From the NCBI GenBank assembly GCA_009729775.1, contig GCA_009729775.1_4081.1: a stretch of DNA of 64,000 nt; one strand, written 5' to 3'. The notes beneath the pieces were generated by a model. The model was not told the origin of the DNA, did not search any database, and was given only the letters and a program-made list of their open reading frames with translations. Positions within the stretch are counted from its first letter, which is position 1, and each line of letters begins with the position of its first letter. Below, in pieces: positions 1 to 18,428 of the stretch. The translations under genes were made by a program, and so were the position numbers. The stretch is from Escherichia coli. GTDB lineage: Bacteria; Pseudomonadota; Gammaproteobacteria; Enterobacterales; Enterobacteriaceae.

Positions 1-2625
1 ATTAACGTTGATAATATCAACGAAACTGATGTATGGGTTCAAGAAATAAATGAAGATGGTATTGTTCGTACCAAATGGACAAAAGTTCCATCAATGGAAA
101 GTATTGCATATAACACTGTTAATCGTCAATTAAAAACAATTTTTGCTGTTACTACTCGTGATAAAGACCAAATAACAATTAAGTACCCAGACTCAAGAAG
201 TGGTGTTGTTCCCCGTGGGACGTTCCGTGTATGGTATCGTGTTAGTAATGGTAAAACATATAACATTAAAACTTCTGAAATTCAAAACAAAAGCGTAAAA
301 TATACATATCGTACAAAAACACAGTCAAGTTATGAATCTAGTACATTGGATATACGTTTTTCATTACAATATGAATCCGACCGTGCACAAAGTGCTGAAA
401 CTATTGAGCAGATTAAAGCACGTGCACCACAAATGTACTATACCCAAAACCGTTTTGTCAATGGTGAAGATTATAATATAGCACCACTTAGTTTAGGAAA
501 TACAGTACTTAAATCTAAAGCTATTAATAGAATTTATAGTGGTCAATCAAGGTTCATTGATATCAATGATCCTACTGGTAAGTATCAGAATACCGACGTT
601 TTTAGTGATGATGGTGCATTATATCAAGAAAACACGCAATTTAATAGATCGTTATTGCTCCCAACTACAAAAACAAATGCTAGTATTGTTATTGACAATA
701 TTCAACCATTGATTGGGGAAAATGCAGTAATACAACGTTACCAAGCGTATCCATCCAATACAATTGGTATTGAAATACAACAAGCATGGACTCCAGTGTA
801 CAATTCAAATTACACAACCAATACATATGGCAGAATTTTGGGTTCGTCTGGAACAGTGTATGGTTCGTATCAGGTAGGTACTCTTATTAAATTTTCTAAT
901 TCTGGTACTACGATATGGGCAAGTGTTGTAAGTGTGTTAGATAATGGTTTTTATGTACTAAGCACATCTGTTCCTAGTGGAATGCAAGCAATAGAGTACA
1001 TATTACCATATAGAACTAGATTTAACACAGTTGAAGTTCAGTCTATTTCTGCTATGTTGGATAAAAAAACCGATTTTGTAATTGTACATGATAAAGAAAC
1101 AACTTCATGGGTTCCAATCGAAGCAAGTACTAATGACGATACTATTGTGTATAATGGTAATGAAGTTTTAATTATAATAAATGTAAAATATACAGCAGAA
1201 ACTTGGGAATTTGATGCTAACGGTATTGAATATATTTTTGTGGGTGGGGAAAAAGTAAGATTTTACTTTGTATCATCTAAAAAAATTACTGATATAAGTA
1301 CTGGTACAGTTCAAAGTGATAAGATTGAAATTTTATCATCTAACACTACTAGTAGTAGTAATTCAGGATTGACAAGTAATATAGATTTTCAAATTTATGA
1401 CACAATTCAACAAGAGAATGGCTATCTAGATGGTTCTCGTGTTATTGTTACATCTAGGAAAGTAGATAGTAATGGTATACCATTGGAACCAAACCAATTT
1501 AAAGAAATTGTTCCTACTTGGACTGGAACCGATGCATTAAAATATGGTGGTATTTTGGTATTTCAGGAAAATAGTGATTTCACTATATCAGTACTGTCGT
1601 TACCAAATGATACCTTCACACTTCTTGATTCATCGTGGTCTTATACAATGGAACAAGCTTTGGCAGAGCCGAATGCATATAAAAGAACTGAATTTGTTAG
1701 AAATAACGCAATTCGTTCAACCACATTGAGTGGATTATATAGTAAAGGTTCTGGATTTTTAGTTGGTTTTAACTATGATGGTAAATATTATTTTATTGAA
1801 CAAACAGTTGGCAATAACAATGATCGTTTGGGACAACTAATTAGTAATTTAACTTATTCCGATGATACTGGCACTGTTAGTCCTGAATTGGCTTTTTATC
1901 GTGCAATTAATAACATGGGAACTAATGCTGACGAGAATCAGAAGCTAGATTATTATGGATACAAAGATGTTACTTCACAGTACACTGTTAAAACTAATGC
2001 ACGTACTAGTATAGACTTCCATTGGAAACACTATGCACCTGACGACAATCGCATTGATCCTAGTAGAACAAACTTAATTGATATGTATGTATTAACCAAT
2101 TCATATAAAACTGAAGTTGACGTTTGGTTGAAAAATAATGCTGTTGGTAGTATTCCTAAACCACCAACATCGGTTGAATTAAAAGATATGTTCAAAGATG
2201 TTGAACAAAAAATAGTCATTAGTGATAGTATCATTTGGCATAGTGCTGAGTACTTACCTTTATTTGGAAACAGTGCTGCTGAAGATTACAAAGCTGATTT
2301 TAAAGTAGTGAAATTACCAAACAGCACAATGAGTGATGATGAAATTCGTCAAAATGTCATAGCATTAACTAATGAATACTTCAATGTTGATAACTGGGAT
2401 TTCGGTGAAAGTTTCTATTATACTGATTTGTGTACTTACATACACTCACAGTTAGGTAGACATATTAGTACTATTGTTATAGTTGCACAAAATCCAAATT
2501 CAAAATTTGGTTCTCTATTTGAAATCCCTTCACGTTCAGACCAAATATTCTTGAGTACTGCATCTGTTGAAAATGTTCAAATTGTTAACTCACTAGCTAA
2601 AAGTAATATTAATATCGGTTCTTAA
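1..2625 (+). CDS. virion structural protein (baseplate/tail-associated?), 5'-partial
   Basis: Frame is open from nt 1 to the ATG at 94 with no stop, so the gene probably starts upstream of the window; 843+ aa; stop at 2623-2625 followed by a terminator hairpin. No recognisable catalytic motif. Confidence 0.65.
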   Translation: MNVDNINETDVWVQEINEDGIVRTKWTKVPSMESIAYNTVNRQLKTIFAVTTRDKDQITIKYPDSRSGVVPRGTFRVWYRVSNGKTYNIKTSEIQNKSVKYTYRTKTQSSYESSTLDIRFSLQYESDRAQSAETIEQIKARAPQMYYTQNRFVNGEDYNIAPLSLGNTVLKSKAINRIYSGQSRFIDINDPTGKYQNTDVFSDDGALYQENTQFNRSLLLPTTKTNASIVIDNIQPLIGENAVIQRYQAYPSNTIGIEIQQAWTPVYNSNYTTNTYGRILGSSGTVYGSYQVGTLIKFSNSGTTIWASVVSVLDNGFYVLSTSVPSGMQAIEYILPYRTRFNTVEVQSISAMLDKKTDFVIVHDKETTSWVPIEASTNDDTIVYNGNEVLIIINVKYTAETWEFDANGIEYIFVGGEKVRFYFVSSKKITDISTGTVQSDKIEILSSNTTSSSNSGLTSNIDFQIYDTIQQENGYLDGSRVIVTSRKVDSNGIPLEPNQFKEIVPTWTGTDALKYGGILVFQENSDFTISVLSLPNDTFTLLDSSWSYTMEQALAEPNAYKRTEFVRNNAIRSTTLSGLYSKGSGFLVGFNYDGKYYFIEQTVGNNNDRLGQLISNLTYSDDTGTVSPELAFYRAINNMGTNADENQKLDYYGYKDVTSQYTVKTNARTSIDFHWKHYAPDDNRIDPSRTNLIDMYVLTNSYKTEVDVWLKNNAVGSIPKPPTSVELKDMFKDVEQKIVISDSIIWHSAEYLPLFGNSAAEDYKADFKVVKLPNSTMSDDEIRQNVIALTNEYFNVDNWDFGESFYYTDLCTYIHSQLGRHISTIVIVAQNPNSKFGSLFEIPSRSDQIFLSTASVENVQIVNSLAKSNINIGS

Positions 2626-2632
2626 TATAACG

Positions 2633-2656
2633 GGCGTTCTTCGGAACGCCTTTTTT
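2633..2656 (+). terminator. intrinsic terminator (GGCGTTC-TTCG-GAACGCC + T6)
   Basis: Perfect 7-bp GC-rich stem, tetraloop, T-run directly after the stop of the first gene. Confidence 0.6.
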
Positions 2657-2674
2657 ATATCATAAATAAATCAA

Positions 2675-5600
2675 ATGAATGAACGAATTATATGGAGTCC
2701 AAAAATGACTAATAATTTTAAGTTTCAACCTACACAGATGGCTGAAGCAGTACAGAAGAAGCTTTTTATTAAAAGATTGCCTGAGTGGATGCAAGGCTTA
2801 GAAGATATTCAAAAAGTCAGTGATGATGTTATTCAACAATGGTTTAATCCGGCTGAAAACGAATTAGTTGACGGCTATATTGGTGATATGGGTTCTCCTG
2901 CCGCTGCTGGTAATATCTTCTTACATGAAAGTACTGTAGCACGTCAACTTTATCAGTTGTCCACTGCTTACGTCTCAAAAAATGATGATTCGACAATTCG
3001 TTCAATTCAATTTTATGATGATCTAGTTGGATACATGAATCATTATGGAGCACTAACCGATAATGAAAGCCGTTTGTTCAACGGTAAGTTTTATGCATGG
3101 ACTCCAGCTATTAACCCAAATAAAATGAACAATTTTAGCTCATATCTTTGGGATACTAAAAACTCTTATAATATTACTTCACCTGATTACATTGTAATGG
3201 AACGTGGAGCACTTAATGGTAATACATGGTCACTACAAAACTTTTGGTATACTTTAGGTGAAACATTAGAAGATGGCTCAATATTAACTGAAGAATTAAT
3301 GCAAGATTCACGTTTTATTCGTGCACGTGCACCAATTATTGAATATAATAAAAATATTGAGCTAATTAACTACGGTACAAAATTCCGTGGAACTGTTGAT
3401 CTGTTCTCTGATATTATTAAACCTGAAGATATCGTTCAAAAAGATATTAATAGTGGTATACGTATTGATGGTATTATTCCGCAAGATGGAATGCGTATTC
3501 TATTCACCAGTATTGGTAACAATGGTGAAAACAATAGAATTTATAATGTATATGTGAAAAAAATGCAAGATGGTACTCGTGTTTATGGTTTAGCACTAGA
3601 TCCAGAAGAAGAAACCGAATCACGCCCAAGTGGTGAACCTCAAGATGGTGATGTTGTTCTAATCACTAAAGGTAATGAGTATGGTAATAGTTCTATGTAC
3701 TGGAATGGTTCTTTGTGGGTTCGTGCACAATCAAAAACTAGTGTTAACGTATTCCCTAAATTCCAACTTTATGATCGTAATGGTATCAAACTTGACAACA
3801 GTACTACATATCCATCAAGTAACTTTAAAGGTTCAGAGTTGTTTGGTTTTAAAATAAATTACAACTATGCAACTGATAGTGTATATGGATATAACATTGA
3901 ACTTGGTGATTATAATTATTACATTTATGAAAACTTTTTACAATCACAACGTTATACCTATGACCATCTTGGAAAAGAAGTTGAAATTGATGGTTTATAC
4001 TATTATAACATTATTGATGAAAATAATGAAATGAATCTTCAAACCGATTGGGTTCGTTCAGAAGAGTACTCTAAACAATTTGTAAAACAAACTCCACAAG
4101 TCCAACGTACTGATATGTATCGTGTATTCAGTACTGTTTATGATATGGAAGTTTTTAAAGAACCAGTTGATGGTATGTATGCATATGTTATTGAAGTTGA
4201 TAGAACATATCAGTACTATAAAGCTGACCGTGAAACTTATCTAGATTGGCATCCAATTACTGGTGATGGTGTTCAGATTGTAAAATATGACCATACATTC
4301 GAATTGGCACAAAAAGTTTTAGATAATGATTCTGATATTATTGAAGTTGTGGTTGATGGTGTTGATGTGTCCAAATATACCAAAAATGTTTCAAAAGGTC
4401 AAGTACAAAGCATCACTCTAGATAGTACTGTAGAATTGGATGAAGATTCTGTTATTCAAATTAGAACTTATAGCAGTACTGTAACACCTGATAAAGAATT
4501 AGGTGCTTATGAAGTTCCAATCAACCTACAAAATAACCCATATAATTCTAATATTATATACATTAACCAAGGTGACTACACTTTACATTTTCAGGATATT
4601 ATTCAAAAGAACATTACACGTGGTTCTTCTGATGATTTCAATGACTATGAAGAACGTTTGGCTAAAGGATTGGTTAATAATGGCGTAGGTACTAAAATTA
4701 TCCAAAATGAAGCATCTATGCTTCCATTGATGGCACATACTGCAAATGAAGATATTGATTTGTTTGAAGCAACTATGTTTATGCAATCTGAATATTTTAG
4801 ATTCATTAATAAATTTAATACACAAATGCTTCGTATGTATGATGAAAATCCATCAGACTTTTTACAAAATAGTGCTGCAAACATTGTTGATGCAATTTTA
4901 ACTACTATTAATATGGGACGTGATAGTTCATTCCCATTCTATTATGATAATGTTGGAAGTACTTCTGGATTCATTCGTGCATTTATACCACCAACACCAC
5001 AGTTCTTAGGTATTCTTCAAGCATATGTACCAGAAAAAGCGACATTCCTCACTGCTGGTAGTAAACCAAGCTGTTATAACATCAGTCATACTGGTATTAT
5101 TTCCAAAGCATACCGTGTTATCAATGGTGTTGATAAAATGGATGATGTTGTATATGAATTAGAAAATAGAATTTTTAATAGTATTGATAATAAATTCAAA
5201 GATGTTGATTACGTACCAGTATTGAATAGTGATGACCTTTTCCCTACACCATATTTCACTAAAACTGAATATAGTGCTGAAGAGAAACAAACATTATTAC
5301 TACGTGGATACATTAACTTCACCGCAACTAATGGTATCAGTAATAGTACACATGATTATGATCCTAACAATTGGAGAACTTGGAACTATACTGGCACTTA
5401 TTATGTAGTTAATGGTCAAAGTACTGAAATTCCTGCACGTGGTTCATGGCGTGCCATTTACACTGACCAATATGGTACATATCGCCCAGCTACCCATCCG
5501 TGGGAAATGTTTGGCTTTACACAACGTCCAACTTGGTGGAACCAAGAATACGAACCAACGGCTGTTCAAGTTGGTGAACGTGATAGTGATGTTGTATATG

Positions 5601-8600
5601 TATATGAAGCACTTGTTATGAATGAGCAAGGTGATTTAGTTCCTAGTGGTCTTTGGGATATTGACGGAACTATTGGAGATAGCAGTACTGGAACTATTTT
5701 ATTTGGTGATCGTCGTGGTCAATATGACAAATATAAAAGATTTGGTGTACAGCCATTCAAAATTACAAAAACTGGAAATAAAACATCTTCTGGTATTGAT
5801 ATTTGTGTGGTTGAATATATTGCACCTGAAATTTTAGGTTTAGTGTCTGGTTCTTTAAATCATAGAGCAGAACCTTGGACATATGGTGATATGGGTGACA
5901 TGGAATTTACATACATGAACACTACATTGTTTGCATATGACCAAATGATGCTTTTGTATAAAGCTAAACCAGCACAATTTGCTAACTATTTCTGGGATAC
6001 CCGCAACGATAACTTAAAAGAAGTATTCACTGATGGTTCACAATTCCTTTATGGTGATACACGTAAGCGTATTAATTTTGATAAAAATACAGTAGTTCAT
6101 GGTGAAAATAGCACAAGAACAATTGGTTATCAAATGTTTGTAAGTGACCATTTGATGTATCAAAATAAAAATATTACCACCAAGTATGGGGATGTAGTTC
6201 GTTCTTCTTATATAAATGTTGGTCATAAAATTGGAGGATTTACTAAAGCAGATCAGCTAACATTCAATGCTAAATCTTTCGGTCTTATTTCACAAGAAAA
6301 CCAAACCATTGGTCTTGTTCGTTCTAATAATATCCGTGATGAGCAAATGAGTGCGATCAAAATTACTTGGAATGGTAGTGCATATCAGATTGATGGATAT
6401 GACCTAGTTGGTGCTAAATTTAAATATAAACTTCCAGTAAAAAATGGTAGAAAAGTAACTCTTAAATTGGAAAACCGTAATGTTGTTCATTATAATGAAT
6501 GGAAGTCTGAAGCTTCAATTGAATATGGTAAAGTTTTCAATAGTTACCAAGAAGTTTATACTTTTATTTGTGGATATGGTGAATATCTTAAAGAACATGG
6601 TTGGATTTTTGAAGATGTAAATGATAGTGGTGCTCAACAAGATTGGAACACTATTGCTAAAGATTTCGTGATCTGGAGTCAGAATTCTCTAGTAACTGGT
6701 GAATTTATTTCTTGTACCCCAAGTGCTGCAAACGCTAAATTTGGGGCAGACTTTGGTTCAGTACAATCTATTACGCAAAATAATGGTGGTGTATGGTCAT
6801 TACTTGATGATAATAACCAAGGTATTCGCCAATATGAAATTGAAACTTCTCGTATTGGAAATATCTTCACTGTTAGAACTTTAGAATCTAATAAACGCAT
6901 TGCATTGATTCGTTTAAGTTTGTGTTCATATGAACATGCTGTTATTTTTGATGATAAAACTATTTTTGGTGATTACATTTATCAGCCAACATATGGTTCT
7001 ATTCAAGAACTAATTAAAATGTATGGATATATTACTGGTTCATGGACTGGTCGCCTACAAGCTCCTGGATTTATTATATTGGAAGCTGGAACACTACCAT
7101 CATTTGAAAAATTAGTGTCGGATTTCCAACATTATTATGATAGTGAAACTCCAGTAAGTGATGTACAATTACAAGAGTTGTCAAACCATTTGATTGGTTA
7201 TCAATCTCGTGATTATCTACAGCGTATGATTAGTAGTGATGTTAGTCGTGTTGATTTCTATAAAGGATTCATTCACGATAAAGGTACTAACCAAGTTTTA
7301 GAACGTGTACTTCGTGTTTCTAAATCATATGACACTGATGAATATAAAGCATTACAAGAATGGGCATTTAAAATTGGTACATATGGTAATATTGATGGTA
7401 AGAAAAACCTTCAATTTAAACTAATCAATGACCAATTTAAACAACAACCTCAAATGGTTTCTTTTGATGTAAATGCAACTTCAAATGGTAATGGTAATCA
7501 TATTGTATACTTCGGTGAGCAGGGTAAAGATCCTCGTTGGATTACACGTCCAAATGGTAAGTTCTCATTCCCAATGCGTAGTGGAAGAAGTGAAAATATC
7601 CAACTTCCAGATATTGGTCCAGTAACATTGGATGAAGTATCGTACACAACAAAAGATTTCAGTACTGCATATAATGACCGCATAACTTATACTAATGGTA
7701 AAGGTGAAAATCCTGAATCTGTGTGGATGTTTAAAGACGGTAATGGTTTGTGGAACATTTTTGAATTGGTTGATACTAATGTGCAAATGGTTTCTATAAC
7801 ACCTATTGAAAATACCGATGTGTATGCTGAACAATTTTGTAAAGTAACTTTAACTGATAATGTGCCACTTGAAGATGGTGATTATTATTATTTTGTTGAT
7901 GAAACTAACTTTATGCCAGATACTTTAACAGTAGAAAGTCAATATTATACTGCTGGTTCTGATCCTAAAGTTATGGTAGTTCCATTTGACACTTCTATTG
8001 ATATTGAATTTACTGATCCAGATACACGTCCACGTTTGTATCGTTATGTATCACGTTTTGCCAGTACTGATGAACGTCAAGCTTACATTGACAAGAAATA
8101 TAGTTTTAAAGCACCACAAAGTACTTTATTTGATCGTCCAACGACATATGATGAACGTACTAACATTACTGAGCTATATCTAAACGTTTATGACCCAATT
8201 AATGGTGTTATTCCAGGTGCGGCTATGCAAAACGTAACATATACTTCACCAGTTGATCCTGCACAGTATAATAGTAATGGAGAGTTAATCCAGGCTTGGG
8301 GTGCTGATAAAGTTGGTCAAGTATGGTGGAACACTAGCACTGCATTTTATTTGGATTATACTCGTGCAATTTATGACGCAGACGGTAATGTTGACATTGA
8401 TGCAACCAATGAATACAAACGTTACAACTGGGGTCGTTTATTACCACATAGTACAATTGATGTGTTAGAGTGGGTTTGTTCACCAGTTGAGCCATATAAC
8501 TGGGACAAATACTGTAAAGATGTTGCTAAGAAAAACAAAAATAATACTATGTATCTACCAAGTGGAACTGCACTTGAAGATAATTATAGTACATTTTTGG

Positions 8601-11600
8601 AATATGATAGTTCAACTGATAGTTATGTGACAAAATACTATTTCTGGGTACGTGATACAATTTATGTACCACCACTACATACCAGAACAAAATCATGTAC
8701 TGACATTGCTCGTATTATTAAAGATCCAACACAGCTAAACATTCCTTGGTTCGCTCCAATCAATGAAAACTCGTTTATTCTTAGTAATATGCAATTTAAA
8801 GTGAATGATGATACCAGTATTTTAACTGTTTCTTATTACATGGATAGTACTGAAGTTGTTAAACATGACCAGTATCAACTATGTAAAGAAGGTGACAGCT
8901 ATAACTTTAACCCACTAATTTGGGATTCAATGTGGAACTCACTAATTGGTCAAGAAACAACTGAATCAGGTTCTGTGATTAATTTATTATATCCAGATGT
9001 TGATAACGGTTTAGGTTCAAACAAAACTTGGTTCCAAAATGTTATAGAAGCTCGTAGAAACTTTGTAGAAAGTGCTAATAATTATTATAGGTCACAAAAC
9101 ATAACCACTAATAGTGTTGTTATGGAAGATGTGTTTAATGTTAAAACCACTGAAGTTAACCCGAATGAAGTTTCTTTCCGTGTATTGTCTTACAATAATG
9201 AATTAGTTATTGCAGTTGAAAGTGATAAATTTAAAGAAAATGACGCTGTTATTTTAAGTACTAGTGGATATCTACCAAATCCATTAACTTCTAGTGCTGT
9301 TTATTTTATTCACTTCGACGAAAATGGATATATTCAGTTAATGAATAGTCCAGCAAACGCGGGTAGTGTTGTTACTATAACGTTAGAGAACAAAGGTGAG
9401 GGACAACATAAAATGATTAAACAATCTGATTATGTTGAATCACTAGGAACTTCATTGGACATGACTCAGTACTGGTCATATGCTGATTGGTATGATGTTG
9501 GGTATGATAGTAACACGACTTATACTCAAGAGTCAAGCTTAGAAGATGCTAATACTAAAAACTACCAAGTTGGCGATATTATCAGAGTTACCGATAGTGA
9601 AAACATTTGGACATTGTATATTAAATCACAATCACGCGATTCAATTTATTGGAAAGCGATTGGTCGTGAAAACAGTACAGTTGAACTCAATGATATGCTT
9701 TACGCAGATTATAGTGTTCATAATGATAATGGTTCACTAAGCAATCGTGAAATCAACGTTCGTAAAGCACTAGCTTTACTCAAAAATTCTTTCGATTTAC
9801 ATCAAAGCGAAATTGTTTTTGATATGGTCAAATATGTACATGTTGAACAAAGTGTTGTGGATTGGGTATTTAAAACATCATATATCTATATTGTTGGTTT
9901 GGAACAATCATTAGTTCAAAACTATTCAAACGATAATTTGATTAATCAAATTGTTGAATATTTTGAAGAAGTTAAACCTTATAGAACTAAAATTCGTTCA
10001 CAAATAGAGCAAAAGACATCTGATGATGATTTAATAAAAGGTCTATGTAATGATTTAGATCCTAATGGATATATTTTCGTTGACGGTTCTTGGATCAAAA
10101 CTGAAAAAGATATTTGGGATTATGAGTACGCTCAATTTAATGAAATTACCCAAAAATGGGAACAGGTAGGTTCACTACCAAGTGATTTCGTTACACCAAA
10201 TAGAAGATTCCAAGAAATTGATATTATTATGCATTATGATAATATTCAGTGTAAACCAAATGAAGATTTGGCAAGCATAAATGAATTAGTAAGTGTTAAT
10301 AACAAATATCAATCCAATGAAAAGGATGCTGTTAGTAACTATGAATTACAACGTTATATATATTCTTTCCCAGAATATAGTGAAGAAACTTTCGATCTTC
10401 TTATTGCTTATCAAATGCAAATCTACTATCCAGAATTGGATGTAACACTAGGAACAGCATATGGCGTTAACCAGTGGTATAAAGACCATGCGGAAGATTT
10501 AGAAGCAACTGATGAATTTACTGCTACATTGGAGCGTGTTTATAAAGAATCAACGCAGAACGATATGTTTACTGACCTTAGACAATATGTTCAGTATAAC
10601 ACATTGGCAAACCGTTTGAAACTTTATAAAGATATAAGTGATGAGAAAATTCACGATGAAGTTGGTTGTGGATTTAGTGGACTTACCTATAATGACAATC
10701 CTAGTACTAGACTTCCATTAGGCTTTTCTTCTAGTAATGATTATAACTATGGATATTTTGAAATAAGCAGTGAACTGTATCAAAAATATATTTCATTAAT
10801 TAAAGATAAAAATCCTGACGCATCAGACTATGAAGTAAAAGTTAAACTTGAAGTTGAGTATGGTGTATATGTTTATCGTTATGATGAAGTAGGTGGTGAT
10901 ACCCGTTTCTATACTGATGCTATTCACGTATTAGCAGGTATGAGAGGGTTATTCGACAAAGACGCTACTGATAAGTACGAAAAAGCTGAAGAGATTCTTA
11001 GTAAGACCCCAATTGATATCTATGCAATTACAATGATTCCACGAAAATATGTTTACTTAAATGTTAACGGTGTATATCAAAGTATACCTGATGAACAAAG
11101 TATTGATGATTTCATGGAAGATTATTTTATCACAAATGGTGAAATGATTGAACTAGCTGAAATAAATCTAGATGATTTACCACTAGATCAAAATAATCCA
11201 ATGTATTCTGATTATCAATATATACTTGATAGTATTACTGAAGCTAAGTACTTCAATGATATGAATGCATTTGATAACCTAGCATTGGAATCTCAAACTT
11301 CTTCAATAAAATGGGAAGTTAAAGATGATGAAGTTGATCCTTATATTGTGGATATATCTGACATAAACCCTTCTGGGCGTGATGTTGGTCAAATTAGATT
11401 TACAGTTGATGGATATGGGTTTGACAATGTATCTCTTGTACAATTACGTGATAACAGCAGATATCAAACTGAAGGTATGGCAATTATCAATCCATATAAA
11501 CATACAGAAGCAATTGTTAGTATTCCTTCATATGCTAAGATTGAAAATGATATTAATAAAACAACATCGAAGTTTGATGAAAAATATTTCTATCGTGTGA

Positions 11601-12676
11601 GATCTATTAATAGCTTAACTGAAGCAGAAATAGTTGACAATGACCTATCTGATGGTGATAAGGTGATGATTTTCACTCCTGATGGTGAAGATTTTGTGAG
11701 ATATCAAAATCACACATGGGAAACAATCTTGCGTGTATCTAACATCAAAAACAATACAACTCCGATCCTATTCACTGTAAGAAATACAGGTAAAGAAACG
11801 ATTGAATTGATTGATGAGAGTACTGGTGCAGTTCTCCGTTATGATAATATCACTCTTGCACAACAAAATGAGCCAGTACAGCCTCTTGCATTGAACATTG
11901 TTCGTGTTAGAACATTTGCTGACCCAGAATTTGTGAAGAATGGTATCAAATTGTACGAACAAAATAGAAATTACACAATTGATGTAATTAATTATGATGT
12001 TTTCTACGATACTACTTTAAATGGTGGTAAGTACAATGACGGAATAACACCAGATGACGTTGACGTTTGGATAATCTCTAACGAAATATTTGATGTTGAT
12101 GGAATTACTATCGACAACGGTTATAACCTACCAATTACTGGTGCGGGAGTTCTTAGTGAATTAGCAAGAACTAAAATGACTGATAGTTTAGAAATCAACG
12201 TTATTGAATATGATTCAAGTGTTATTCAACCGTTTAGAAATAATGAAGGTATATGGGTTTATGGATATCCAATGGTTGACGGTATGTACATCGGTGTTGT
12301 TGGTGGCACGGTTACTAACATCACAACCATTAGTGAAGAAAATACAACCTATGTTTCTCAACCTAAATCAATAAGTCCTTATAGTATTAGAAATAATGTT
12401 TTATCCGGTTCTGCCGCGAACATGAATGATATTATATCGATTGGATATGAAAAAGTTGAAGTTAGAAATGCAAATAATTTACTCCGTGGAGTAATGTATA
12501 GTGCAGAACATGATTTTAAACTTAATACTACATATTCATTCAATGGAATTAATTTAGGTAATTATGATATGTTAAAACGTTACACACAAAATAGTTACAC
12601 TATAGATCTTTCAGTATACACTGATAGTCTACAAGTTAGTGGTAATGATATTAAAAATATATTATTAGTTAAGTAA
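2675..12676 (+). CDS. giant virion-associated protein (3333 aa in ORF track)
   Basis: Uninterrupted 10-kb ORF. The likely true start is the ATG at 2705 (MTNNFKF...), 7 nt after a GGAG motif. Its position between structural genes suggests a tail/baseplate or fibre component; no motif recognised. Confidence 0.85.
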   Translation: MNERIIWSPKMTNNFKFQPTQMAEAVQKKLFIKRLPEWMQGLEDIQKVSDDVIQQWFNPAENELVDGYIGDMGSPAAAGNIFLHESTVARQLYQLSTAYVSKNDDSTIRSIQFYDDLVGYMNHYGALTDNESRLFNGKFYAWTPAINPNKMNNFSSYLWDTKNSYNITSPDYIVMERGALNGNTWSLQNFWYTLGETLEDGSILTEELMQDSRFIRARAPIIEYNKNIELINYGTKFRGTVDLFSDIIKPEDIVQKDINSGIRIDGIIPQDGMRILFTSIGNNGENNRIYNVYVKKMQDGTRVYGLALDPEEETESRPSGEPQDGDVVLITKGNEYGNSSMYWNGSLWVRAQSKTSVNVFPKFQLYDRNGIKLDNSTTYPSSNFKGSELFGFKINYNYATDSVYGYNIELGDYNYYIYENFLQSQRYTYDHLGKEVEIDGLYYYNIIDENNEMNLQTDWVRSEEYSKQFVKQTPQVQRTDMYRVFSTVYDMEVFKEPVDGMYAYVIEVDRTYQYYKADRETYLDWHPITGDGVQIVKYDHTFELAQKVLDNDSDIIEVVVDGVDVSKYTKNVSKGQVQSITLDSTVELDEDSVIQIRTYSSTVTPDKELGAYEVPINLQNNPYNSNIIYINQGDYTLHFQDIIQKNITRGSSDDFNDYEERLAKGLVNNGVGTKIIQNEASMLPLMAHTANEDIDLFEATMFMQSEYFRFINKFNTQMLRMYDENPSDFLQNSAANIVDAILTTINMGRDSSFPFYYDNVGSTSGFIRAFIPPTPQFLGILQAYVPEKATFLTAGSKPSCYNISHTGIISKAYRVINGVDKMDDVVYELENRIFNSIDNKFKDVDYVPVLNSDDLFPTPYFTKTEYSAEEKQTLLLRGYINFTATNGISNSTHDYDPNNWRTWNYTGTYYVVNGQSTEIPARGSWRAIYTDQYGTYRPATHPWEMFGFTQRPTWWNQEYEPTAVQVGERDSDVVYVYEALVMNEQGDLVPSGLWDIDGTIGDSSTGTILFGDRRGQYDKYKRFGVQPFKITKTGNKTSSGIDICVVEYIAPEILGLVSGSLNHRAEPWTYGDMGDMEFTYMNTTLFAYDQMMLLYKAKPAQFANYFWDTRNDNLKEVFTDGSQFLYGDTRKRINFDKNTVVHGENSTRTIGYQMFVSDHLMYQNKNITTKYGDVVRSSYINVGHKIGGFTKADQLTFNAKSFGLISQENQTIGLVRSNNIRDEQMSAIKITWNGSAYQIDGYDLVGAKFKYKLPVKNGRKVTLKLENRNVVHYNEWKSEASIEYGKVFNSYQEVYTFICGYGEYLKEHGWIFEDVNDSGAQQDWNTIAKDFVIWSQNSLVTGEFISCTPSAANAKFGADFGSVQSITQNNGGVWSLLDDNNQGIRQYEIETSRIGNIFTVRTLESNKRIALIRLSLCSYEHAVIFDDKTIFGDYIYQPTYGSIQELIKMYGYITGSWTGRLQAPGFIILEAGTLPSFEKLVSDFQHYYDSETPVSDVQLQELSNHLIGYQSRDYLQRMISSDVSRVDFYKGFIHDKGTNQVLERVLRVSKSYDTDEYKALQEWAFKIGTYGNIDGKKNLQFKLINDQFKQQPQMVSFDVNATSNGNGNHIVYFGEQGKDPRWITRPNGKFSFPMRSGRSENIQLPDIGPVTLDEVSYTTKDFSTAYNDRITYTNGKGENPESVWMFKDGNGLWNIFELVDTNVQMVSITPIENTDVYAEQFCKVTLTDNVPLEDGDYYYFVDETNFMPDTLTVESQYYTAGSDPKVMVVPFDTSIDIEFTDPDTRPRLYRYVSRFASTDERQAYIDKKYSFKAPQSTLFDRPTTYDERTNITELYLNVYDPINGVIPGAAMQNVTYTSPVDPAQYNSNGELIQAWGADKVGQVWWNTSTAFYLDYTRAIYDADGNVDIDATNEYKRYNWGRLLPHSTIDVLEWVCSPVEPYNWDKYCKDVAKKNKNNTMYLPSGTALEDNYSTFLEYDSSTDSYVTKYYFWVRDTIYVPPLHTRTKSCTDIARIIKDPTQLNIPWFAPINENSFILSNMQFKVNDDTSILTVSYYMDSTEVVKHDQYQLCKEGDSYNFNPLIWDSMWNSLIGQETTESGSVINLLYPDVDNGLGSNKTWFQNVIEARRNFVESANNYYRSQNITTNSVVMEDVFNVKTTEVNPNEVSFRVLSYNNELVIAVESDKFKENDAVILSTSGYLPNPLTSSAVYFIHFDENGYIQLMNSPANAGSVVTITLENKGEGQHKMIKQSDYVESLGTSLDMTQYWSYADWYDVGYDSNTTYTQESSLEDANTKNYQVGDIIRVTDSENIWTLYIKSQSRDSIYWKAIGRENSTVELNDMLYADYSVHNDNGSLSNREINVRKALALLKNSFDLHQSEIVFDMVKYVHVEQSVVDWVFKTSYIYIVGLEQSLVQNYSNDNLINQIVEYFEEVKPYRTKIRSQIEQKTSDDDLIKGLCNDLDPNGYIFVDGSWIKTEKDIWDYEYAQFNEITQKWEQVGSLPSDFVTPNRRFQEIDIIMHYDNIQCKPNEDLASINELVSVNNKYQSNEKDAVSNYELQRYIYSFPEYSEETFDLLIAYQMQIYYPELDVTLGTAYGVNQWYKDHAEDLEATDEFTATLERVYKESTQNDMFTDLRQYVQYNTLANRLKLYKDISDEKIHDEVGCGFSGLTYNDNPSTRLPLGFSSSNDYNYGYFEISSELYQKYISLIKDKNPDASDYEVKVKLEVEYGVYVYRYDEVGGDTRFYTDAIHVLAGMRGLFDKDATDKYEKAEEILSKTPIDIYAITMIPRKYVYLNVNGVYQSIPDEQSIDDFMEDYFITNGEMIELAEINLDDLPLDQNNPMYSDYQYILDSITEAKYFNDMNAFDNLALESQTSSIKWEVKDDEVDPYIVDISDINPSGRDVGQIRFTVDGYGFDNVSLVQLRDNSRYQTEGMAIINPYKHTEAIVSIPSYAKIENDINKTTSKFDEKYFYRVRSINSLTEAEIVDNDLSDGDKVMIFTPDGEDFVRYQNHTWETILRVSNIKNNTTPILFTVRNTGKETIELIDESTGAVLRYDNITLAQQNEPVQPLALNIVRVRTFADPEFVKNGIKLYEQNRNYTIDVINYDVFYDTTLNGGKYNDGITPDDVDVWIISNEIFDVDGITIDNGYNLPITGAGVLSELARTKMTDSLEINVIEYDSSVIQPFRNNEGIWVYGYPMVDGMYIGVVGGTVTNITTISEENTTYVSQPKSISPYSIRNNVLSGSAANMNDIISIGYEKVEVRNANNLLRGVMYSAEHDFKLNTTYSFNGINLGNYDMLKRYTQNSYTIDLSVYTDSLQVSGNDIKNILLVK

Positions 12677-12680
12677 TAAA

Positions 12681-12712
12681 AAAGGAGAGCAATATGCTCT
12701 CCTTTTCTTTTT
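12681..12712. terminator. bidirectional intrinsic terminator between convergent genes
   Basis: GGAGAGC-aatat-GCTCTCC hairpin flanked by an A-run upstream and a T-run downstream, between the giant ORF (+) and the clpA-like gene (-). Confidence 0.65.
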
Positions 12713-15000
12713 TATGCCAGTGCTTTATCTACAGCTTTGGAACGTTTCGGTTTAATACCGATTTTACCATCAATAACATCAAATGTAATGTTACCACCAT
12801 TCACAAGTGAACCACACAACATTTCTTTAGCTAGTGGTACACGAATGTTTTGTTCAATGGTACGTTTCATTGGACGTGCACCCATACCAACTTTTACCCC
12901 ATTTTTCGCAAGCCATTCACGTGCAGCTTTTGTCAATGTAACTTTAACATTACGGTCTTTGACTTGTTCATTCAAACCACCCATGAACTTATCAATGATG
13001 CTGTCAATAGCTTCACTGCTTAGGTCTTTAAACGTAACGATACTATCAATACGGTTAATAAACTCTGGTGGCAAGAATGCTTTAATTGCCTTGTCCTGTG
13101 CAGTGTCACTACCGCTCATACCAATGCTACGCTTTGTTGAATCAGCCGCACCAAGGTTTGTAGTCATAATAACAGTTACGTTATTAAAATATACAGTTTT
13201 ACCTTGAGAACCAGTCAGACGACCTTCATCCAAAACCTGTAGGAAGGTTAGTAGTACTTTACGATCTGCTTTTTCAATTTCATCAAGTAACAGTACTGCA
13301 TTAGGGAACTGCTCAATTTTATCCAACAGTAAACCGTTACCAGAATCATGACCAACATAACCTGGAGGTGAACCAATTAGTTTAGAAACAGTATGTTCTT
13401 GAGAAAATTCTGACATATCAAAGCGAATGAGTTCCGCACCAGTTGCGTCTGCTAATGCTTTGGTAATTTCTGTTTTACCAGTACCAGATGGTCCAACAAA
13501 CATAAATGCACCCTGAACACTAGATTTGTCACGCAGTCCTGCACGAGCTACCATCACGTTATCAACTAATTTTTGAATAGCTTCCTCTTGACCGTATACA
13601 CGTGAGCGTAGTGCATCTGGTAGATTACGCATACGATCACTTTCAGTACATGCAACCACGTTGATATCCAAATTGGCAATACCAGCAACAACTTCTTGAA
13701 TCAAATTGGCAGTAATAAGCTTACTATTGTTGTCACGTGAACGAACTTTTGCAGCAGCAGCGTCCATTAGATCAATTGCTTTATCTGGGAAGTGCTTATT
13801 CTTCAGGAATTTATCACTGAGAGAAATTACAGCATCCATTGCATCAGATGTGAACTCAACATTATGGAATTTTTCATACGTTGGTTTCAAACCATTAACA
13901 ATTGCACGAGTTTCATCAATTGACGGCTCAACTACATCAATTTTCATAAAACGACGAGTTAATGCACTATCTTTCTCGATATTTTTACGATATTCATCAT
14001 ATGTTGTTGCACCAATTACACGAATCTCACCACGTGAAAGTGCTGGCTTAAGCATATTGCTCATATCCATAGAACCATTACTTGCGGAACCAGCCCCAAC
14101 CATAATATGAATTTCATCAATGAAAACAATAGTATTTTCACGTTTCTTTAGTTCTTTTAGCAAATTGTCGATGCGTTCTTCAAATTCACCACGATACTTA
14201 GTACCAGCAGTCAATGCACCAACATTTAGTGAAAGAATTTCAACGTCTTTCAGGTGTTCAGGTACGTTACCATCAGCAATAGCTTGTGCAAGCCCGTCGA
14301 TGATTTGTGTTTTACCTACACCAGCTTCACCAGTGAGAATAGCATTCTTTTTGGTTTTGCGAGCAAGAGTCTCAATCAATGCAGACAATTCTTTCTGGCG
14401 ACCAATCATAGGATCTAGTTTGCCTTCTTTTGCAAGAGCAGTTAGATTCGTTGTATAGTCTTCCAAACCTTTTTGTTTAGATGATTGCTGCTGTTGAGCC
14501 ACTTTTTTATCTCCAATCGGTTCGTCATTAATACTTTGTAAGTTGATACCCTTATCAAGTGACTCAACGTGTTTTTGCAATGCACGTGCAGCTTCAGTAC
14601 AGCTAACACCTTCTTCTTTTAACGCAGCTTCTAGTGCTGTGTTAGGGAAAGACAGACATTCGAATAGAACAAAATATGCATCAATCGAAAAATCATCACT
14701 TTTTAGTTGTTCAATAACTGATTTTTTAGAAAGCTCATGTACAACGCGATTCACTAGAAGTGAAGTTCGATTCGCGTCTTCATCTTTAACACTTTTTGGT
14801 GCATGTGGAACTGTTGTATTTTTAAGATAGTTCATCAGGCGGTTGTGCAGTTTGTCTGCATCAATGTTCATATCTTCAAATACGTTCTTGATGCTATCAA
14901 TAGTCAGTACTGTGGCACTTACGTGGTCAATAGTCAAGAATGTATGACCTAGAGATGTTGCCAGTTCGTCGCTTTTTTTGAACAATTGAGTAAGATTCAT
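12712..15000 (-). CDS. clpA: ClpA-like two-ring AAA+ unfoldase (Clp ATPase)
   Basis: Clp N-domain, D1 Walker A GEAGVGKT and D2 Walker A GPSGTGKT, Walker [10 protein letters not shown], no ClpB middle domain. A loop KRSIGMSG sits where ClpA carries its ClpP-docking IGL tripeptide. ORF track begins at GTG 15021; probable start is the ATG at 15000, 5 nt after AGGAG. Confidence 0.85.
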
Positions 15001-15040
15001 GTATTCTCCTATGTGATTCACGTCACTCTAATTAATAAAC

Positions 15041-15068
15041 ATTATATCACATTCTTACGGTTTGTCTA
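15041..15068 (-). promoter_or_regulatory. sigma70-like promoter (TAGACA-N16-TGaTATAAT) for the clpA-like gene
   Basis: Minus-strand reading gives a -35 TAGACA, 16-nt spacer and extended -10 TGATATAAT about 35 nt upstream of the SD/ATG. Confidence 0.5.
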
Positions 15069-15110
15069 CAAGGTAAATAAAGATATACCCGATTTATTTT
15101 GGAGACAAAC

Positions 15111-16604
15111 ATGACATATAGAATGTGGAAAAAAGGGAGAACCAATGATTACAAGTTCATTGATTCTGCCATTGCTGAACAATACAACATTGGTGGAGTT
15201 GACATGTGGCTTTATGCATATGTCGGTCCAAAACAAGTTGCTGACAACACTGACTTATCCTATGGAGGTGATTATACATCTTCAGGATCAGTTGTGTCAA
15301 GTATTGGCGATTTAATTTTTGGTGACACACCAAACAGAAACTACAACCTTGAAGCTATCACACTTAGTTGTGTCTATCAAGTTCAAGAAGCAACTCCAGA
15401 CTTGAAAATCCCAGGATTGTTCTTTAATTTCAACACTATGGACATCACAATCCATTATAATACAATGATGCAGCGTTTAGGTAGAAAAATCATGCCAGGG
15501 GATGTGATAGAACTACCAAATTTACGTGATTTTGATGTATTGGGTAAAGATACAGGTCTAAACCGCTTCTATGTCGTCCAAGATGCATTTCGTACATCTG
15601 AGGGATACTCGGTTACGTGGCAACATCACATTTATAAACTTAGAGTTAAACCGCTAACCGACTCACCTGAGTACTCCGATTTACTCGGTAACAATAATTA
15701 TCCTGATAATCCAGATGACCCTAATAATGGTAATGGAAATACCGATGATGGTTCGTCGGAAAACAGTAACTATGGCAATGAAATGGATATCATGAACCGT
15801 ATCATCATGCAAGCTGATGATGAAGTACCCTATATTCATTATACAAATGAACATTTGTATGATGATCGACCTGATACAGTAGATTTATCAAAATATATGC
15901 TTAACGGTTATGATTTTCCAGAAGAACCTGCCGATGGAATGTATTTTTTGAAAAAAACATACCCAGTACTCAAAGAGTTTGTTAATGATACATGGATTTC
16001 TGTGGAAGTCAAGCGTGGAACCATCTTTCCCAGAAAACCAATGGATGGTGACTTCTTCTTTAAAGAAAATGACGCAGATGTGACAGGTTATACGTTGTAT
16101 CAATATGATAAAAGTGCTAAAAAATGGTTAAATTGTGATGTAGAATATACTACCAGTGATGTTCCACCAGAAGATGTGGAAGATTTTTGTATTTTTTATA
16201 AAGAACCACACATTTATCAGTATAATGATGACAAGTGGGGGGAACCAAAGGTAACTTATGTCAATGAACCATTCACGTCCAATTGTGTATATGGTAATAT
16301 TGATTCGCAACAAGATTATCGTCCTAAAATTCCACCAGCACGAGGTACAGTCCCTGAAGGAAATATGTTCCCAACTGATGCAGTAGATGGTGACTATTTC
16401 TATCGCACCGATTATACTCCAGTTACGTTATGGGAATTCAATGCAACTAAGAATTCATGGGTTATTTTTGATTATGGTGGAAGAAAACCGTGGGAAGGTG
16501 CAGACTTAGCACTTACACAGTTTGTAAATAGTGATAACAAAGTTCCATTACATGACGCAGTTAAACCTAATACTGTTTATCGCATACATAAGGACACAGA
16601 ATGA
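15111..16604 (+). CDS. virion structural protein (neck or baseplate-like?)
   Basis: ORF track starts at TTG 15099; the ATG at 15111 follows GGAGA by 5 nt. Weak by-eye resemblance to T4-type neck proteins; Asp/Asn-rich low-complexity stretch in the middle. Confidence 0.7.
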   Translation: MTYRMWKKGRTNDYKFIDSAIAEQYNIGGVDMWLYAYVGPKQVADNTDLSYGGDYTSSGSVVSSIGDLIFGDTPNRNYNLEAITLSCVYQVQEATPDLKIPGLFFNFNTMDITIHYNTMMQRLGRKIMPGDVIELPNLRDFDVLGKDTGLNRFYVVQDAFRTSEGYSVTWQHHIYKLRVKPLTDSPEYSDLLGNNNYPDNPDDPNNGNGNTDDGSSENSNYGNEMDIMNRIIMQADDEVPYIHYTNEHLYDDRPDTVDLSKYMLNGYDFPEEPADGMYFLKKTYPVLKEFVNDTWISVEVKRGTIFPRKPMDGDFFFKENDADVTGYTLYQYDKSAKKWLNCDVEYTTSDVPPEDVEDFCIFYKEPHIYQYNDDKWGEPKVTYVNEPFTSNCVYGNIDSQQDYRPKIPPARGTVPEGNMFPTDAVDGDYFYRTDYTPVTLWEFNATKNSWVIFDYGGRKPWEGADLALTQFVNSDNKVPLHDAVKPNTVYRIHKDTE

Positions 16605-17944
16605 AAATAGATTATTATTATGACGGTCAATTTCGCAGAGTACTGAAACATCTTATCAGAGTTTTTGGTGAATTTCAAGTACAAAATGGTATTGATGCTA
16701 ATGGAAACCCAAAATACAAAAAGGTTCCATGTCGCTATGCCGATATTTCAAGAATGGCAGCAGCAATTATAAATGGGAATAGTGAAAATGTTCTCCCATC
16801 AGCACCTATAATGACCATAAGTGTTAATCAACTAAAGTTGGATCGTAAAAATATTCGTTCTAATGCCAACGAAACTATAGTAATGGGGTCTAACAAGTCC
16901 CCTGCTATTAATGAGTACACAAAAGATCTTGACACACAATACAAAATTGTAAGACATAACCCAGTACCTTGGACTTTTACGTTTGATTTGAATATTTGGG
17001 TAACTCAAACTCAAACTAAAATGGAATTATTCGAACAAATCTCAACTTTGTTTGCACCTAGTATACAACTTCAATTATCTGATAACCCGTTAGATTGGAC
17101 ATCGCTTAGTGATGTTGAACTAATAGATTGTCAGTTTTCTACTCGTGGTTTTCCACAAGGAACTGACCCAGATTTGGATATAATGGTTTTAACATTTGAA
17201 ACGACAATATGGTTTTCTTTACCAGCTATTGTTGAAAAACCCAAATTAATCCAACAGATTACTACAAATATTAAAGGTGCTCGTGACGAATTTGATTTTG
17301 AAATGGGAAATTATTCAGATATAATAACAGATGTTTTTACACCCAAGAATTTATGCATTAAAGTTGAAGAAATTACTAATTCCAAGTATAATTTACCTGA
17401 TACATACCAACTTACCTTGGTTAGCCAATCGCTATCTGCGGTTTCTCCCAACGGTGGAATATATTCATGGGAAAAATATCTTAAATATCTAGAACCAAAT
17501 TTTGATGACAAAAAAGTAGGGATTAAATTTCAACAATCTATTGAAGAAGACAACCCACTAAAAGGTCATATAGCGTCGTATGGTGAAAATGAAGATGCCA
17601 ACAAAATTATAGTACAGCTTGATAATACCAATTATACTGTTGATTACACTATACATGGGTTTGTGCAGAAAGATTCAGTACTTTCAAGTGCATTACCTGA
17701 ACAATATTATGTAAATAACAGTATACATAACATCATTTATAAAGAAACCGAAATCCCATCAAATTATTTGTTTAAAATTACAAATGACGGTGCACAATTA
17801 ATTGATCCATCTACTGTACGAAATTACATTTATAATAAAGAAGACAATGGTTATTATAGATATAATGACAAATTTAAATGGCATAAAAGTATCATGCCTG
17901 TGTATCGTCAGGGATATTGGAAAATAACTTTCACTGACAAATAA
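16601..17944 (+). CDS. hypothetical virion structural protein
   Basis: ATGA start/stop overlap with the upstream gene (translational coupling), AAGGA SD; 447 aa. Confidence 0.7.
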   Translation: MKIDYYYDGQFRRVLKHLIRVFGEFQVQNGIDANGNPKYKKVPCRYADISRMAAAIINGNSENVLPSAPIMTISVNQLKLDRKNIRSNANETIVMGSNKSPAINEYTKDLDTQYKIVRHNPVPWTFTFDLNIWVTQTQTKMELFEQISTLFAPSIQLQLSDNPLDWTSLSDVELIDCQFSTRGFPQGTDPDLDIMVLTFETTIWFSLPAIVEKPKLIQQITTNIKGARDEFDFEMGNYSDIITDVFTPKNLCIKVEEITNSKYNLPDTYQLTLVSQSLSAVSPNGGIYSWEKYLKYLEPNFDDKKVGIKFQQSIEEDNPLKGHIASYGENEDANKIIVQLDNTNYTVDYTIHGFVQKDSVLSSALPEQYYVNNSIHNIIYKETEIPSNYLFKITNDGAQLIDPSTVRNYIYNKEDNGYYRYNDKFKWHKSIMPVYRQGYWKITFTDK

Positions 17945-17957
17945 AGGAGGTGTTGTT

Positions 17958-18422
17958 ATGAATGAAGCGGTTGGTGCTATATTTTTATCAAAAAGTACTG
18001 GACATATGATGTTAAACTTGCGTTCTGAAAGAAGTACCTATTCTAACAACTGGGCATTTGTTGGTGGAAAGCTTGAACATAACGAAACACCACTACAAGG
18101 TCTGATGCGAGAAATTAAAGAAGAGTTGGGCAACTCAATACCTAACATTATTGATATTATACCGTTTGATGTATTTTGTACAAAAAATGGTAAATTTAAA
18201 TATTATTCATTTGTTATTGTAGTTGAGAATGAATTTGTACCAACTTTAAATCATGAAAGCTCTGGTTATGCTTGGGTTAGAATTGGTTCTTGGCCTAAAC
18301 CATTACACCCTGGTGCTAAAAATACTTTACTTAACACAAACTTAATGAAAGATTTTTACTCACTATGGGAAAGTATACGTGAAGGTACACAGTTTGTCAA
18401 CAGTTTACCATATAGATATTAA
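17958..18422 (+). CDS. Nudix hydrolase
   Basis: Nudix box GGKLEHNETPLQGLMREIKEELG (Gx5Ex7REUxEExGU); AAGGAGG SD. Confidence 0.75.
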   Translation: MNEAVGAIFLSKSTGHMMLNLRSERSTYSNNWAFVGGKLEHNETPLQGLMREIKEELGNSIPNIIDIIPFDVFCTKNGKFKYYSFVIVVENEFVPTLNHESSGYAWVRIGSWPKPLHPGAKNTLLNTNLMKDFYSLWESIREGTQFVNSLPYRY

Positions 18423-18428
18423 AACAAA

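What the first reader, a model, noticed from the sequence alone, without database searches (positions are those of the whole stretch)
2675..12676. 3333-aa giant ORF in the virion module
A single uninterrupted 10-kb gene with no recognisable enzymatic motif and no obvious repeats is unusual; giant phage proteins are typically tail, baseplate or injected proteins and can harbour multiple undescribed domains.
Basis: seen in the sequence. Interest (0 to 1): 0.5.

Follow-up and report, generated by a model that had tools for sequence, protein, structure and literature searches.

The report
Giant baseplate protein of jumbo phage
The 10-kb gene is real and encodes a 382-kDa virion protein of a 121Q/PBECO4-type jumbo coliphage; it always sits just after the baseplate wedge genes, so it is most likely the outer building block of the tail baseplate, yet its 2,450-residue conserved core resembles no solved structure.

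The parts
2675..12676 (+). Giant ORF: 3333 codons plus stop. It is PBECO4 gp538, 121Q gp582, phAPEC6 gp245, RaK2 gp070w and CBB_236.
   Evidence: PHROG 10938 'virion structural protein', full length
2694..2707 (+). GGAG Shine-Dalgarno (2694-2697) and the probable true start codon ATG 2705-2707 (residue M11), giving a 3323-aa, 381.9-kDa product.
   Evidence: Sequence read; homologues start at query residue 11; the mass matches phAPEC6 gp245
1..2625 (+). 3' part of the gp6-like baseplate wedge gene (PBECO4 gp537, 1153 aa; its start lies upstream of the window). It is the constant upstream neighbour of the giant gene.
   Evidence: phrog_10646, and for full-length gp537 phrog_219 'baseplate wedge subunit' E 1.2e-20 at aa 26-125; hhalign to the T4 gp6 N-terminal helical region E 0.0012; annotation
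2632..2657 (+). Terminator-like hairpin plus T-run between the gp6-like gene and the giant gene.
2705..3154 (+). N-terminal module (aa 11-160), conserved in all relatives and followed by the first insertion hotspot. Residues 1-30 and 45-82 are low-confidence in the monomer model.
2714..10054 (+). Conserved family core (aa ~14-2460), mixed alpha/beta and multi-domain. Relatives carry insertions near aa 160, 470-590, 760, 1600-1825 and 2150-2260.
   Evidence: models; insertions carrying CBM_5_12 and FG-GAP in relatives
6983..7405 (+). Helical block aa ~1437-1577. It overlaps the most conserved stretch of the family but is the least confident part of the monomer model, so it is a candidate inter-chain interface (inference).
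   Evidence: Conservation; pLDDT below 50 over much of model residues 260-397
10082..12673 (+). Clade-specific C-terminal region (aa 2470-3333). It is conserved only among RaK2-like enterobacterial phages and replaced by other sequence in distant relatives.
12680..12712 (.). Hairpin with T-runs on both sides, shared by the giant gene and the convergent ClpA/B-like gene.

Best explanation
The ORF encodes a structural protein of the tail baseplate. It is the lineage-specific giant subunit occupying the place of T4 gp7 / P2 gpI, that is, the third wedge component beside two copies of the gp6-like protein. Probably six copies per virion form most of the outer baseplate. A conserved core of about 2,450 residues acts as a rigid scaffold. 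Exposed loops and the variable C-terminal third serve as docking or host-contact surfaces for the fibre apparatus. Shown: the gene is real, and its product is in virions. It is invariably linked to gp25-like and gp6-like genes. The family is huge and always giant. The core has no detectable relative among solved structures. Inferred: its location in the wedge or periphery, the copy number, contact with the gp6-like protein, and the fibre-platform role.
For: (1) Virion presence is published for three phages. In each, sequence coverage is lower than for the neighbouring gp6-like protein: 7.6 vs 24.2%, 7.7 vs 12.5%, and 2.2 vs 18.8%. That is compatible with a lower copy number, though coverage is not quantification.
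(2) Synteny. PBECO4 has gp53-like, a 749-aa protein, a gp5-like spike-lysozyme, a lysozyme, gp25-like, gp6-like, then the giant. The gp25-like, ~1,100-aa wedge protein (DUF8360), giant order recurs in five metagenomic loci at 24-28% identity. In three of them tail-fibre genes lie downstream.
(3) In four of those five loci the giant's start overlaps the stop of the gp6-like gene, which suggests translational coupling.
(4) No other gp7 or gpI candidate is annotated in the PBECO4 baseplate module.
(5) The model of aa 1-1200 is compact and confident (pLDDT 81.9, pTM 0.78). Independent BFVD models of relatives agree with it (TM 0.73-0.81). It is a large globular scaffold, not a fibre.
(6) In relatives, carbohydrate-binding modules sit in insertions and in the C-terminal region. 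CBM_5_12 lies at query ~1265-1276, FG-GAP in the 1600-1825 hotspot, and a second CBM_5_12 C-terminal to the core; Laminin_G_3 is recorded in P0094. This argues that those sites are surface-exposed.
(7) In eCIS baseplates the gp7-like part is the laterally exposed, fibre-binding region and a recognised evolutionary hotspot (PMC8894135). Extreme expansion at this position therefore has precedent.
Confidence: 0.6

Rival explanations
1. It is a host-adhesion or fibre-type protein attached to the baseplate, for example a proximal fibre, a fibre hub or a secondary receptor-binding protein. On this reading it is not an integral wedge subunit.
Against: There are no repeats, coiled coils or beta-helix signature. 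The first 1,200 aa form a compact globular model with pTM 0.78. A core of about 2,450 aa is conserved across some 1,000 clusters, whereas receptor-binding proteins usually vary fastest. The gene is tightly linked to, and overlaps, the gp6-like gene, not the fibre genes. RaK2's fibre components have been mapped to gp098 and gp526-534 without this protein (PMC10253068).
Confidence: 0.17
2. It is an internal or ejected virion protein, such as a tape-measure-like, channel-forming or enzyme-carrying protein delivered into the host, comparable to the giant virion proteins of N4 or T7-like phages.
For: Its giant size and virion association. The coverage in proteomics is low. There is a borderline sequence match to the GCN5 acetyltransferase motif-A region at aa ~2230-2290 (E 0.06-0.3).
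Confidence: 0.06
3. The ORF is an artefact: a fusion of neighbouring genes through sequencing or assembly error.
For: A few database records split the region into 3-9 'hypothetical proteins', for example Salmonella phages SD-1_S14 and SD-2_S15 and Escherichia phage CMSTMSU.
Against: Thirty-five independent records carry the intact ORF at the DNA level and 73 at the protein level. Full-length collinear homologues of 3,310-3,361 aa exist down to 44% identity. Peptides from the ~382-kDa product are found in three phages.
Confidence: 0.01

Closest known systems
T4 gp7 (baseplate wedge protein, 1032 aa; Pfam Gp7_helical, Gp7_5th, Gp7_6th)
   Same: Its gene lies immediately downstream of the gp6-type wedge gene. 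It is a virion structural protein, the largest wedge-module protein of its phage, and multi-domain with no enzymatic motif.
   Different: The giant is three times larger. It has no Pfam gp7 domain (T4 gp7 control). There is no profile-profile similarity and no fold match. Phages of this group have no annotated gp8-gp11 equivalents, so the giant chain may cover the role of several T4 proteins (inference).
Minimal gp7-type subunits: P2 gpI, XM1 gp17 (242 aa), Pam3 gp23, pyocin PA0619, T6SS TssG
   Same: They occupy the same slot in the V-W-J-I-H gene order. Their expected role is to link the wedge to fibres or spikes (PMC10457771, PMC9942802).
   Different: [quoted passage not shown] No such paralogy or clear motif is seen in the giant. 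The size differs more than 10-fold.
gp7-like part of the eCIS proteins Alg12, Afp12 and Pvc12
   Same: It is the laterally exposed, fibre-binding part of the wedge, described as an evolutionary hotspot (PMC8894135). The giant shows the same pattern of a variable periphery on a conserved frame.
   Different: In eCIS the gp7-like part is fused to a gp6-like part in one chain. Here the gp6-like protein is separate, and no sequence or fold similarity was found.
phiKZ baseplate: wedge gp87/gp128 plus outer-periphery scaffold gp27, gp26, gp139, gp130 (PMC13250141)
   Different: phiKZ builds the periphery from many medium-sized proteins. This lineage appears to use one ~380-kDa chain. The similarity is not significant.

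Membership tests
T4 gp7 baseplate wedge family | Pfam domains Gp7_helical (PF21428), Gp7_5th (PF21427) and Gp7_6th (PF21456) | tested here: not met
   T4 gp7 hits all three (E 5e-30 to 2e-47). The giant has no Pfam hit at E<=1.
T4 gp7 baseplate wedge family | Profile-level sequence similarity to gp7 homologues | tested here: not met
   hhalign of the giant family (A1, 40 sequences) against a gp7 family alignment (A8, 17 sequences) gives probability 0.6%. Against single T4 gp7 it gives 0.3%. Sliding blocks give a best P of 0.01-0.03 among 33 tests, and the N-terminal hit was not reproduced with alignment A6.
gp7 / gpI / TssG-type wedge subunit (structural class) | Fold similarity to solved wedge subunits (core-bundle helices plus trifurcation unit) | tested here: inconclusive
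   [not shown]
gp7 / gpI / TssG-type wedge subunit (structural class) | N-terminal helix-turn-helix paralogous to that of the gp6-type partner | tested here: not met
   hhalign of the N-terminal module (A6) against N-termini of the adjacent gp6-like proteins (A7) gives probability 0.2%. The model shows only short helices at 31-34, 43-57, 75-80 and 88-92.
gp7 / gpI / TssG-type wedge subunit (structural class) | Gene directly downstream of the gp25-type and gp6-type genes | tested here: met
   Seen in PBECO4, RaK2 and five metagenomic loci, L004-L008. Start and stop overlap in four of those five.
gp7 / gpI / TssG-type wedge subunit (structural class) | Physical 1:2 complex with the gp6-type protein in the wedge | not testable with these tools
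   This needs cryo-EM, cross-linking MS or a multimer structure prediction.
P2 gpI family (Pfam Tail_P2_I) | Match to the Pfam model | tested here: not met
   The family is not listed for the whole protein or for any of 31 N-terminal modules scanned at E<=1. That the model belongs to the Pfam-A copy scanned is from my own knowledge.
Tail fibre / tailspike proteins | Repetitive or trimeric fibrous architecture (coiled coil, beta-helix, collagen-like or fibre repeats) | tested here: not met
   No internal repeat. The model is compact and globular with pTM 0.78. Only small local matches to fibre N-terminal domains were found.
Tape measure proteins | Predominantly alpha-helical chain; gene between tube/chaperone genes and hub genes | tested here: not met
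   aa 1-1200 are 25% helix and 23% strand. The gene lies after the wedge genes.
PHROG 10938 (RaK2-like giant virion structural protein) | Full-length match to the family profile | tested here: met
   E = 0, aa 11-3330 aligned to profile positions 1-3324 of 3324.

The most novel reading that the evidence does not exclude
In this very large clade of jumbo and mega-phages, the supposedly universal gp7/TssG-type third wedge subunit has been replaced by an unrelated ~2,450-residue protein core, or diverged beyond recognition into one. This single chain would build the whole baseplate periphery that T4 assembles from gp7, gp8, gp9, gp10 and gp11. It would be a new architectural solution for contractile-tail baseplates, made of folds absent from the PDB.
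Probability: 0.2. Interest if true: 0.7.

Novelty: new variant of a known kind. Interest (0 to 1): 0.45.

Why it matters
The baseplate decides when a contractile tail fires and what it binds. All solved baseplates share a (gp6)2-gp7-type wedge. This protein is the hallmark of a clade with about 1,000 sequence clusters, running from RaK2, 121Q and PA5oct to ~500-kb megaphages. It is the largest gene of these genomes and has no assigned role. If it is the wedge/periphery subunit, it shows how baseplates scale up in giant phages. It would also give a defined target for cryo-EM and for engineering the host range of therapeutic jumbo phages. Its insertion hotspots are natural sites for grafting binding modules.

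Tried and rejected
(1) T4 gp7 homology was tested by Pfam, by hhalign with single sequences and with family profiles, and by sliding blocks. All were negative or at noise level.

(2) I considered the conserved helical block aa 1437-1577 as the equivalent of Gp7_helical. This was prompted by a top but insignificant alignment to gp7 662-693. In the sliding control the block does not stand out (P 0.2), so I rejected it as evidence and kept it only as a candidate interface.

(3) The N-terminal module was tested as a paralogue of the gp6-like N-terminus. The result was negative.

(4) PDB sequence searches found nothing convincing. I ran them with the whole protein, with the N-terminal profile and with a clade-level full-length profile. 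The GCN5 motif-A-like hit (E 0.06-0.3) is rejected as chance.

(5) The giant shares no domain with any other ORF of the window.

(6) A T4-type late promoter was sought upstream. Only CATAAATA is present at 2661-2668, and TATAAATA is absent from the whole window, so no promoter assignment is made.

(7) A homologue search with the C-terminal 864 aa alone returned nothing, not even the known full-length relatives. This is a tool limitation and is uninformative.

Full report
**Observation.** The window contains an uninterrupted ORF at 2675..12676 on the + strand, 3333 codons plus stop. The window has about 33% G+C, so an open frame of this length cannot arise by chance. Self-comparison finds no internal repeat. 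Pfam finds no domain at E<=1. The described features are therefore real. One refinement concerns the start. The ATG at 2705 (residue M11) is preceded by GGAG 7 nt upstream, whereas the ATG at 2675 has no such site. Homologues begin at query residue 11. The mass calculated from M11, 381.89 kDa, matches the published 381.88 kDa of phAPEC6 gp245. Terminator-like hairpins lie just upstream (2632-2651) and just downstream (12680-12706) of the gene.

**Identity of the window.** The DNA is 98-99.4% identical to Escherichia phages phAPEC6, PBECO4, 121Q, SP27, G17 and others of the genus Asteriusvirus. The ORF is PBECO4 gp538, 121Q gp582, phAPEC6 gp245 and RaK2 gp070w. It is annotated everywhere as 'hypothetical' or 'virion structural protein'. 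It matches PHROG 10938 over its full length.

**Not an artefact, and present in virions.** Thirty-five records hold the intact gene at the DNA level and 73 at the protein level. Full-length collinear homologues of 3,310-3,361 aa exist down to 44% identity. A few records split the gene into several ORFs, most likely through sequencing errors. Virion proteomics detected the orthologue in three phages:
- phAPEC6 gp245: 17 unique peptides, 7.6% coverage (PMC7247149).
- CBB_236: 21 peptides, 7.7% coverage (PMC5259590).
- RaK2 gp070w: 382 kDa, 7 peptides, 2.2% coverage (PMC3622015 Table S3).

**The family.** A word-indexed search found 198 relatives, all 2,780-5,638 aa. An exhaustive search with aa 11-1200 found 997 cluster representatives at 50% identity, 584 of them at E<=1e-30. 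Most are 2,000-6,300 aa. Among cultured phages the family is confined to the RaK2-like supergroup. This includes Asteriusvirus, Alcyoneusvirus, Munch/7t3, GAP32, CBB, Eneladusvirus, Yersinia fHe-Yen9-03/04, Vibrio 2.275.O, PA5oct-like phages, Atu_ph07, Phosso and RsoM2USA. The conserved core is query aa ~14-2460. Relatives carry insertions near aa 160, 470-590, 760, 1600-1825 and 2150-2260. The last ~870 aa are specific to the enterobacterial clade. In relatives, carbohydrate-binding modules sit in these variable places. CBM_5_12 is inserted at query ~1265-1276, FG-GAP repeats lie in the 1600-1825 hotspot, and another CBM_5_12 lies C-terminal to the core; Laminin_G_3 is recorded in P0094.

**Context.** In PBECO4 the gene order is as follows:
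- gp53-like (Pfam Phage_gp53);
- a 749-aa virion protein;
- a gp5-like spike-lysozyme (Phage_base_V, DUF2345, Phage_lysozyme);
- a small lysozyme;
- gp25-like (GPW_gp25);
- a 1153-aa gp6-like wedge protein;
- the giant.

The gp6-like assignment rests on phrog_219 'baseplate wedge subunit' (E 1.2e-20, aa 26-125). It also rests on a collinear hhalign match to the N-terminal helical region of T4 gp6 (E 0.0012). The trio of gp25-like, ~1,100-aa wedge protein (DUF8360) and giant recurs in five metagenomic loci whose giants are only 24-28% identical to ours. In three of them tail-fibre genes (Gp34_trimer, Peptidase_S74, Collar) lie further downstream. In four of the five, the giant's start overlaps the stop of the wedge gene. 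PA5oct shows the same adjacency: gp128, one of its two largest proteins, lies next to gp129 'baseplate wedge' (PMC7318152). This is the order V-W-J-I-H of P2 and 6-7 of T4, so the giant occupies the gp7/gpI slot. No other candidate for that subunit is annotated in the module.

Foldseek against BFVD returned only fragments of the same family, for example Atu_ph07 'Structural protein' with TM 0.73-0.81. This independently supports the fold. Beyond the family there were only marginal local hits to fibre proteins. No transmembrane-like segment exists.

**Is it a gp7?** Position says yes, but homology could not be shown.
- T4 gp7 carries Pfam Gp7_helical (643-689), Gp7_5th and Gp7_6th. The giant hits none of them.
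- hhalign of the giant family against T4 gp7, and against a 17-member gp7 family profile, gives probabilities below 1%.
- An early, insignificant alignment of aa 1475-1506 to gp7 662-693 looked suggestive because it falls in Gp7_helical. In a sliding-block control this block does not stand out (P 0.2).
- The best blocks (N-terminal module, P 0.025; aa 2411-2480, P 0.01) are at the level expected for 33 tests. The N-terminal hit also moves elsewhere with a more diverse alignment.
- The N-terminal module shows no similarity to the N-terminus of the gp6-like protein. That differs from the gp17/gp16 paralogy of XM1 (PMC10457771).

I therefore do not file the protein as a member of the gp7 family. 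I propose that it works in the gp7 position.

**Mechanism proposed.** Six copies of the 382-kDa chain, together with twelve gp6-like chains and six gp25-like chains, would form the wedge ring and most of the baseplate periphery. The conserved core would be the rigid frame. The hotspots and the variable C-terminal third would be exposed surfaces that dock the fibre apparatus or touch the host envelope. The baseplates of RaK2 and CBB measure about 35-36 nm across, and that of CBB about 15 nm high. By my volume estimate this can hold six such chains (2.3 MDa). Precedent for extreme elaboration at this position comes from eCIS, where the gp7-like part is the exposed, fibre-binding evolutionary hotspot (PMC8894135). 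Further precedent comes from phiKZ, which builds a huge periphery from many proteins (PMC13250141). Shown are virion presence, linkage and conservation. Location, stoichiometry and contacts are inferred.

**Rivals.**
- A baseplate-attached adhesin or fibre hub (confidence 0.17) is favoured by the fibre-like small-domain hits and the CBM insertions. It is disfavoured by the globular, highly conserved core, by the coupling to the wedge gene, and by the mapping of RaK2 fibres to other proteins (PMC10253068).
- An ejected or internal protein (0.06) lacks any support beyond size.
- An assembly artefact (0.01) is excluded.

**Novelty and interest.** The gene and its virion association are in the literature, where it is used merely as 'the largest ORF' for aligning genomes (PMC5259590). 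Its role, its family breadth, its architecture of a conserved core with hotspots, and the absence of any solved structural relative have not been described in the papers I could search. It is best rated as a new variant of a known kind, namely a baseplate wedge/periphery protein. Interest is moderate. It would be higher if cryo-EM showed that it replaces the universal gp7-type subunit with unrelated folds.

Noticed in passing
window 12712..15021 (-): A 769-aa ClpA/ClpB-type double AAA+ protein (Clp_N, AAA, AAA_lid_9, AAA_2 E 2.4e-49, ClpB_D2-small). It is convergent with the giant gene and shares its terminator hairpin. PBECO4 annotates it 'ATP-dependent protease' and RaK2 'ClpA-like'. The adjacency holds in RaK2 but not in the distant metagenomic loci. 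A chaperone role for folding the 382-kDa chain is conceivable but untested.
   Followed up: partly
whole window (1..64000): The T4 late-promoter octamer TATAAATA is completely absent (0 found, 10.9 +/- 2.9 expected), although the phage encodes a gp55-like late sigma factor. TATAAAT occurs 27 times and is never followed by A. Only CATAAATA is found, at 2661-2668 upstream of the giant gene. This remains unexplained.
   Followed up: partly
loci L004, L005, L006, L008 at about 10001; window 2626..2704: In four distant megaphage loci the giant gene's start overlaps the stop of the gp6-like gene. In this window the two genes are separated by 49-79 nt holding a terminator-like hairpin (2632-2651). 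The operon structure therefore differs between clades.
   Followed up: partly
alignment A7 (L001, L004-L008) versus the giant family: The N-termini of the gp6-like proteins are 40-48% identical between phages whose giant proteins are only 24-28% identical. The partner protein evolves much more slowly than the giant.
   Followed up: no
[not shown]
   Followed up: partly
window 25113..30992 (+): A second very large ORF (1959 aa) matches the tail-fibre family phrog_4549 in seven stretches, so it is internally repetitive. It lies in the most G+C-rich part of the window (0.41 at 28-30 kb) and has several long antisense ORFs. It is probably the main fibre shaft. It is flanked by a pectate-lyase-like tailspike at 21921..24062 (PHROG description 'colanic acid degradation') and by a protein with a tail-needle-knob-like C-terminus (31866..32765).
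   Followed up: no
window 37392..40216 (-): A pair of genes encodes a DUF2201_N metallopeptidase plus VWA-like protein (474 aa) and an AAA ATPase (441 aa). This resembles a MoxR/VWA-type pair, and it sits next to thymidylate synthase (34852..35781).
   Followed up: no
window 56363..57475 (-) and 17958..18422 (+): A PolyA_pol head-domain protein, like a CCA-adding enzyme or poly(A) polymerase. Separately, a NUDIX hydrolase gene is embedded between tail genes. The NUDIX gene is conserved at this position in PBECO4 and RaK2.
   Followed up: no
GenBank OQ411014.1 (Escherichia phage EJP2), 147505-154887: The orthologue of the giant protein is annotated 'D-alanyl-D-alanine carboxypeptidase'. Nothing in my Pfam or PDB searches supports a peptidase domain, so this is probably a misannotation.
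   Followed up: no
window 10082..12673 used as query: A homologue search with the C-terminal 864 aa alone returned no hit at all, although 99%-identical full-length proteins are in the same database. This is a behaviour of the word-index tool and not a biological result.
   Followed up: no
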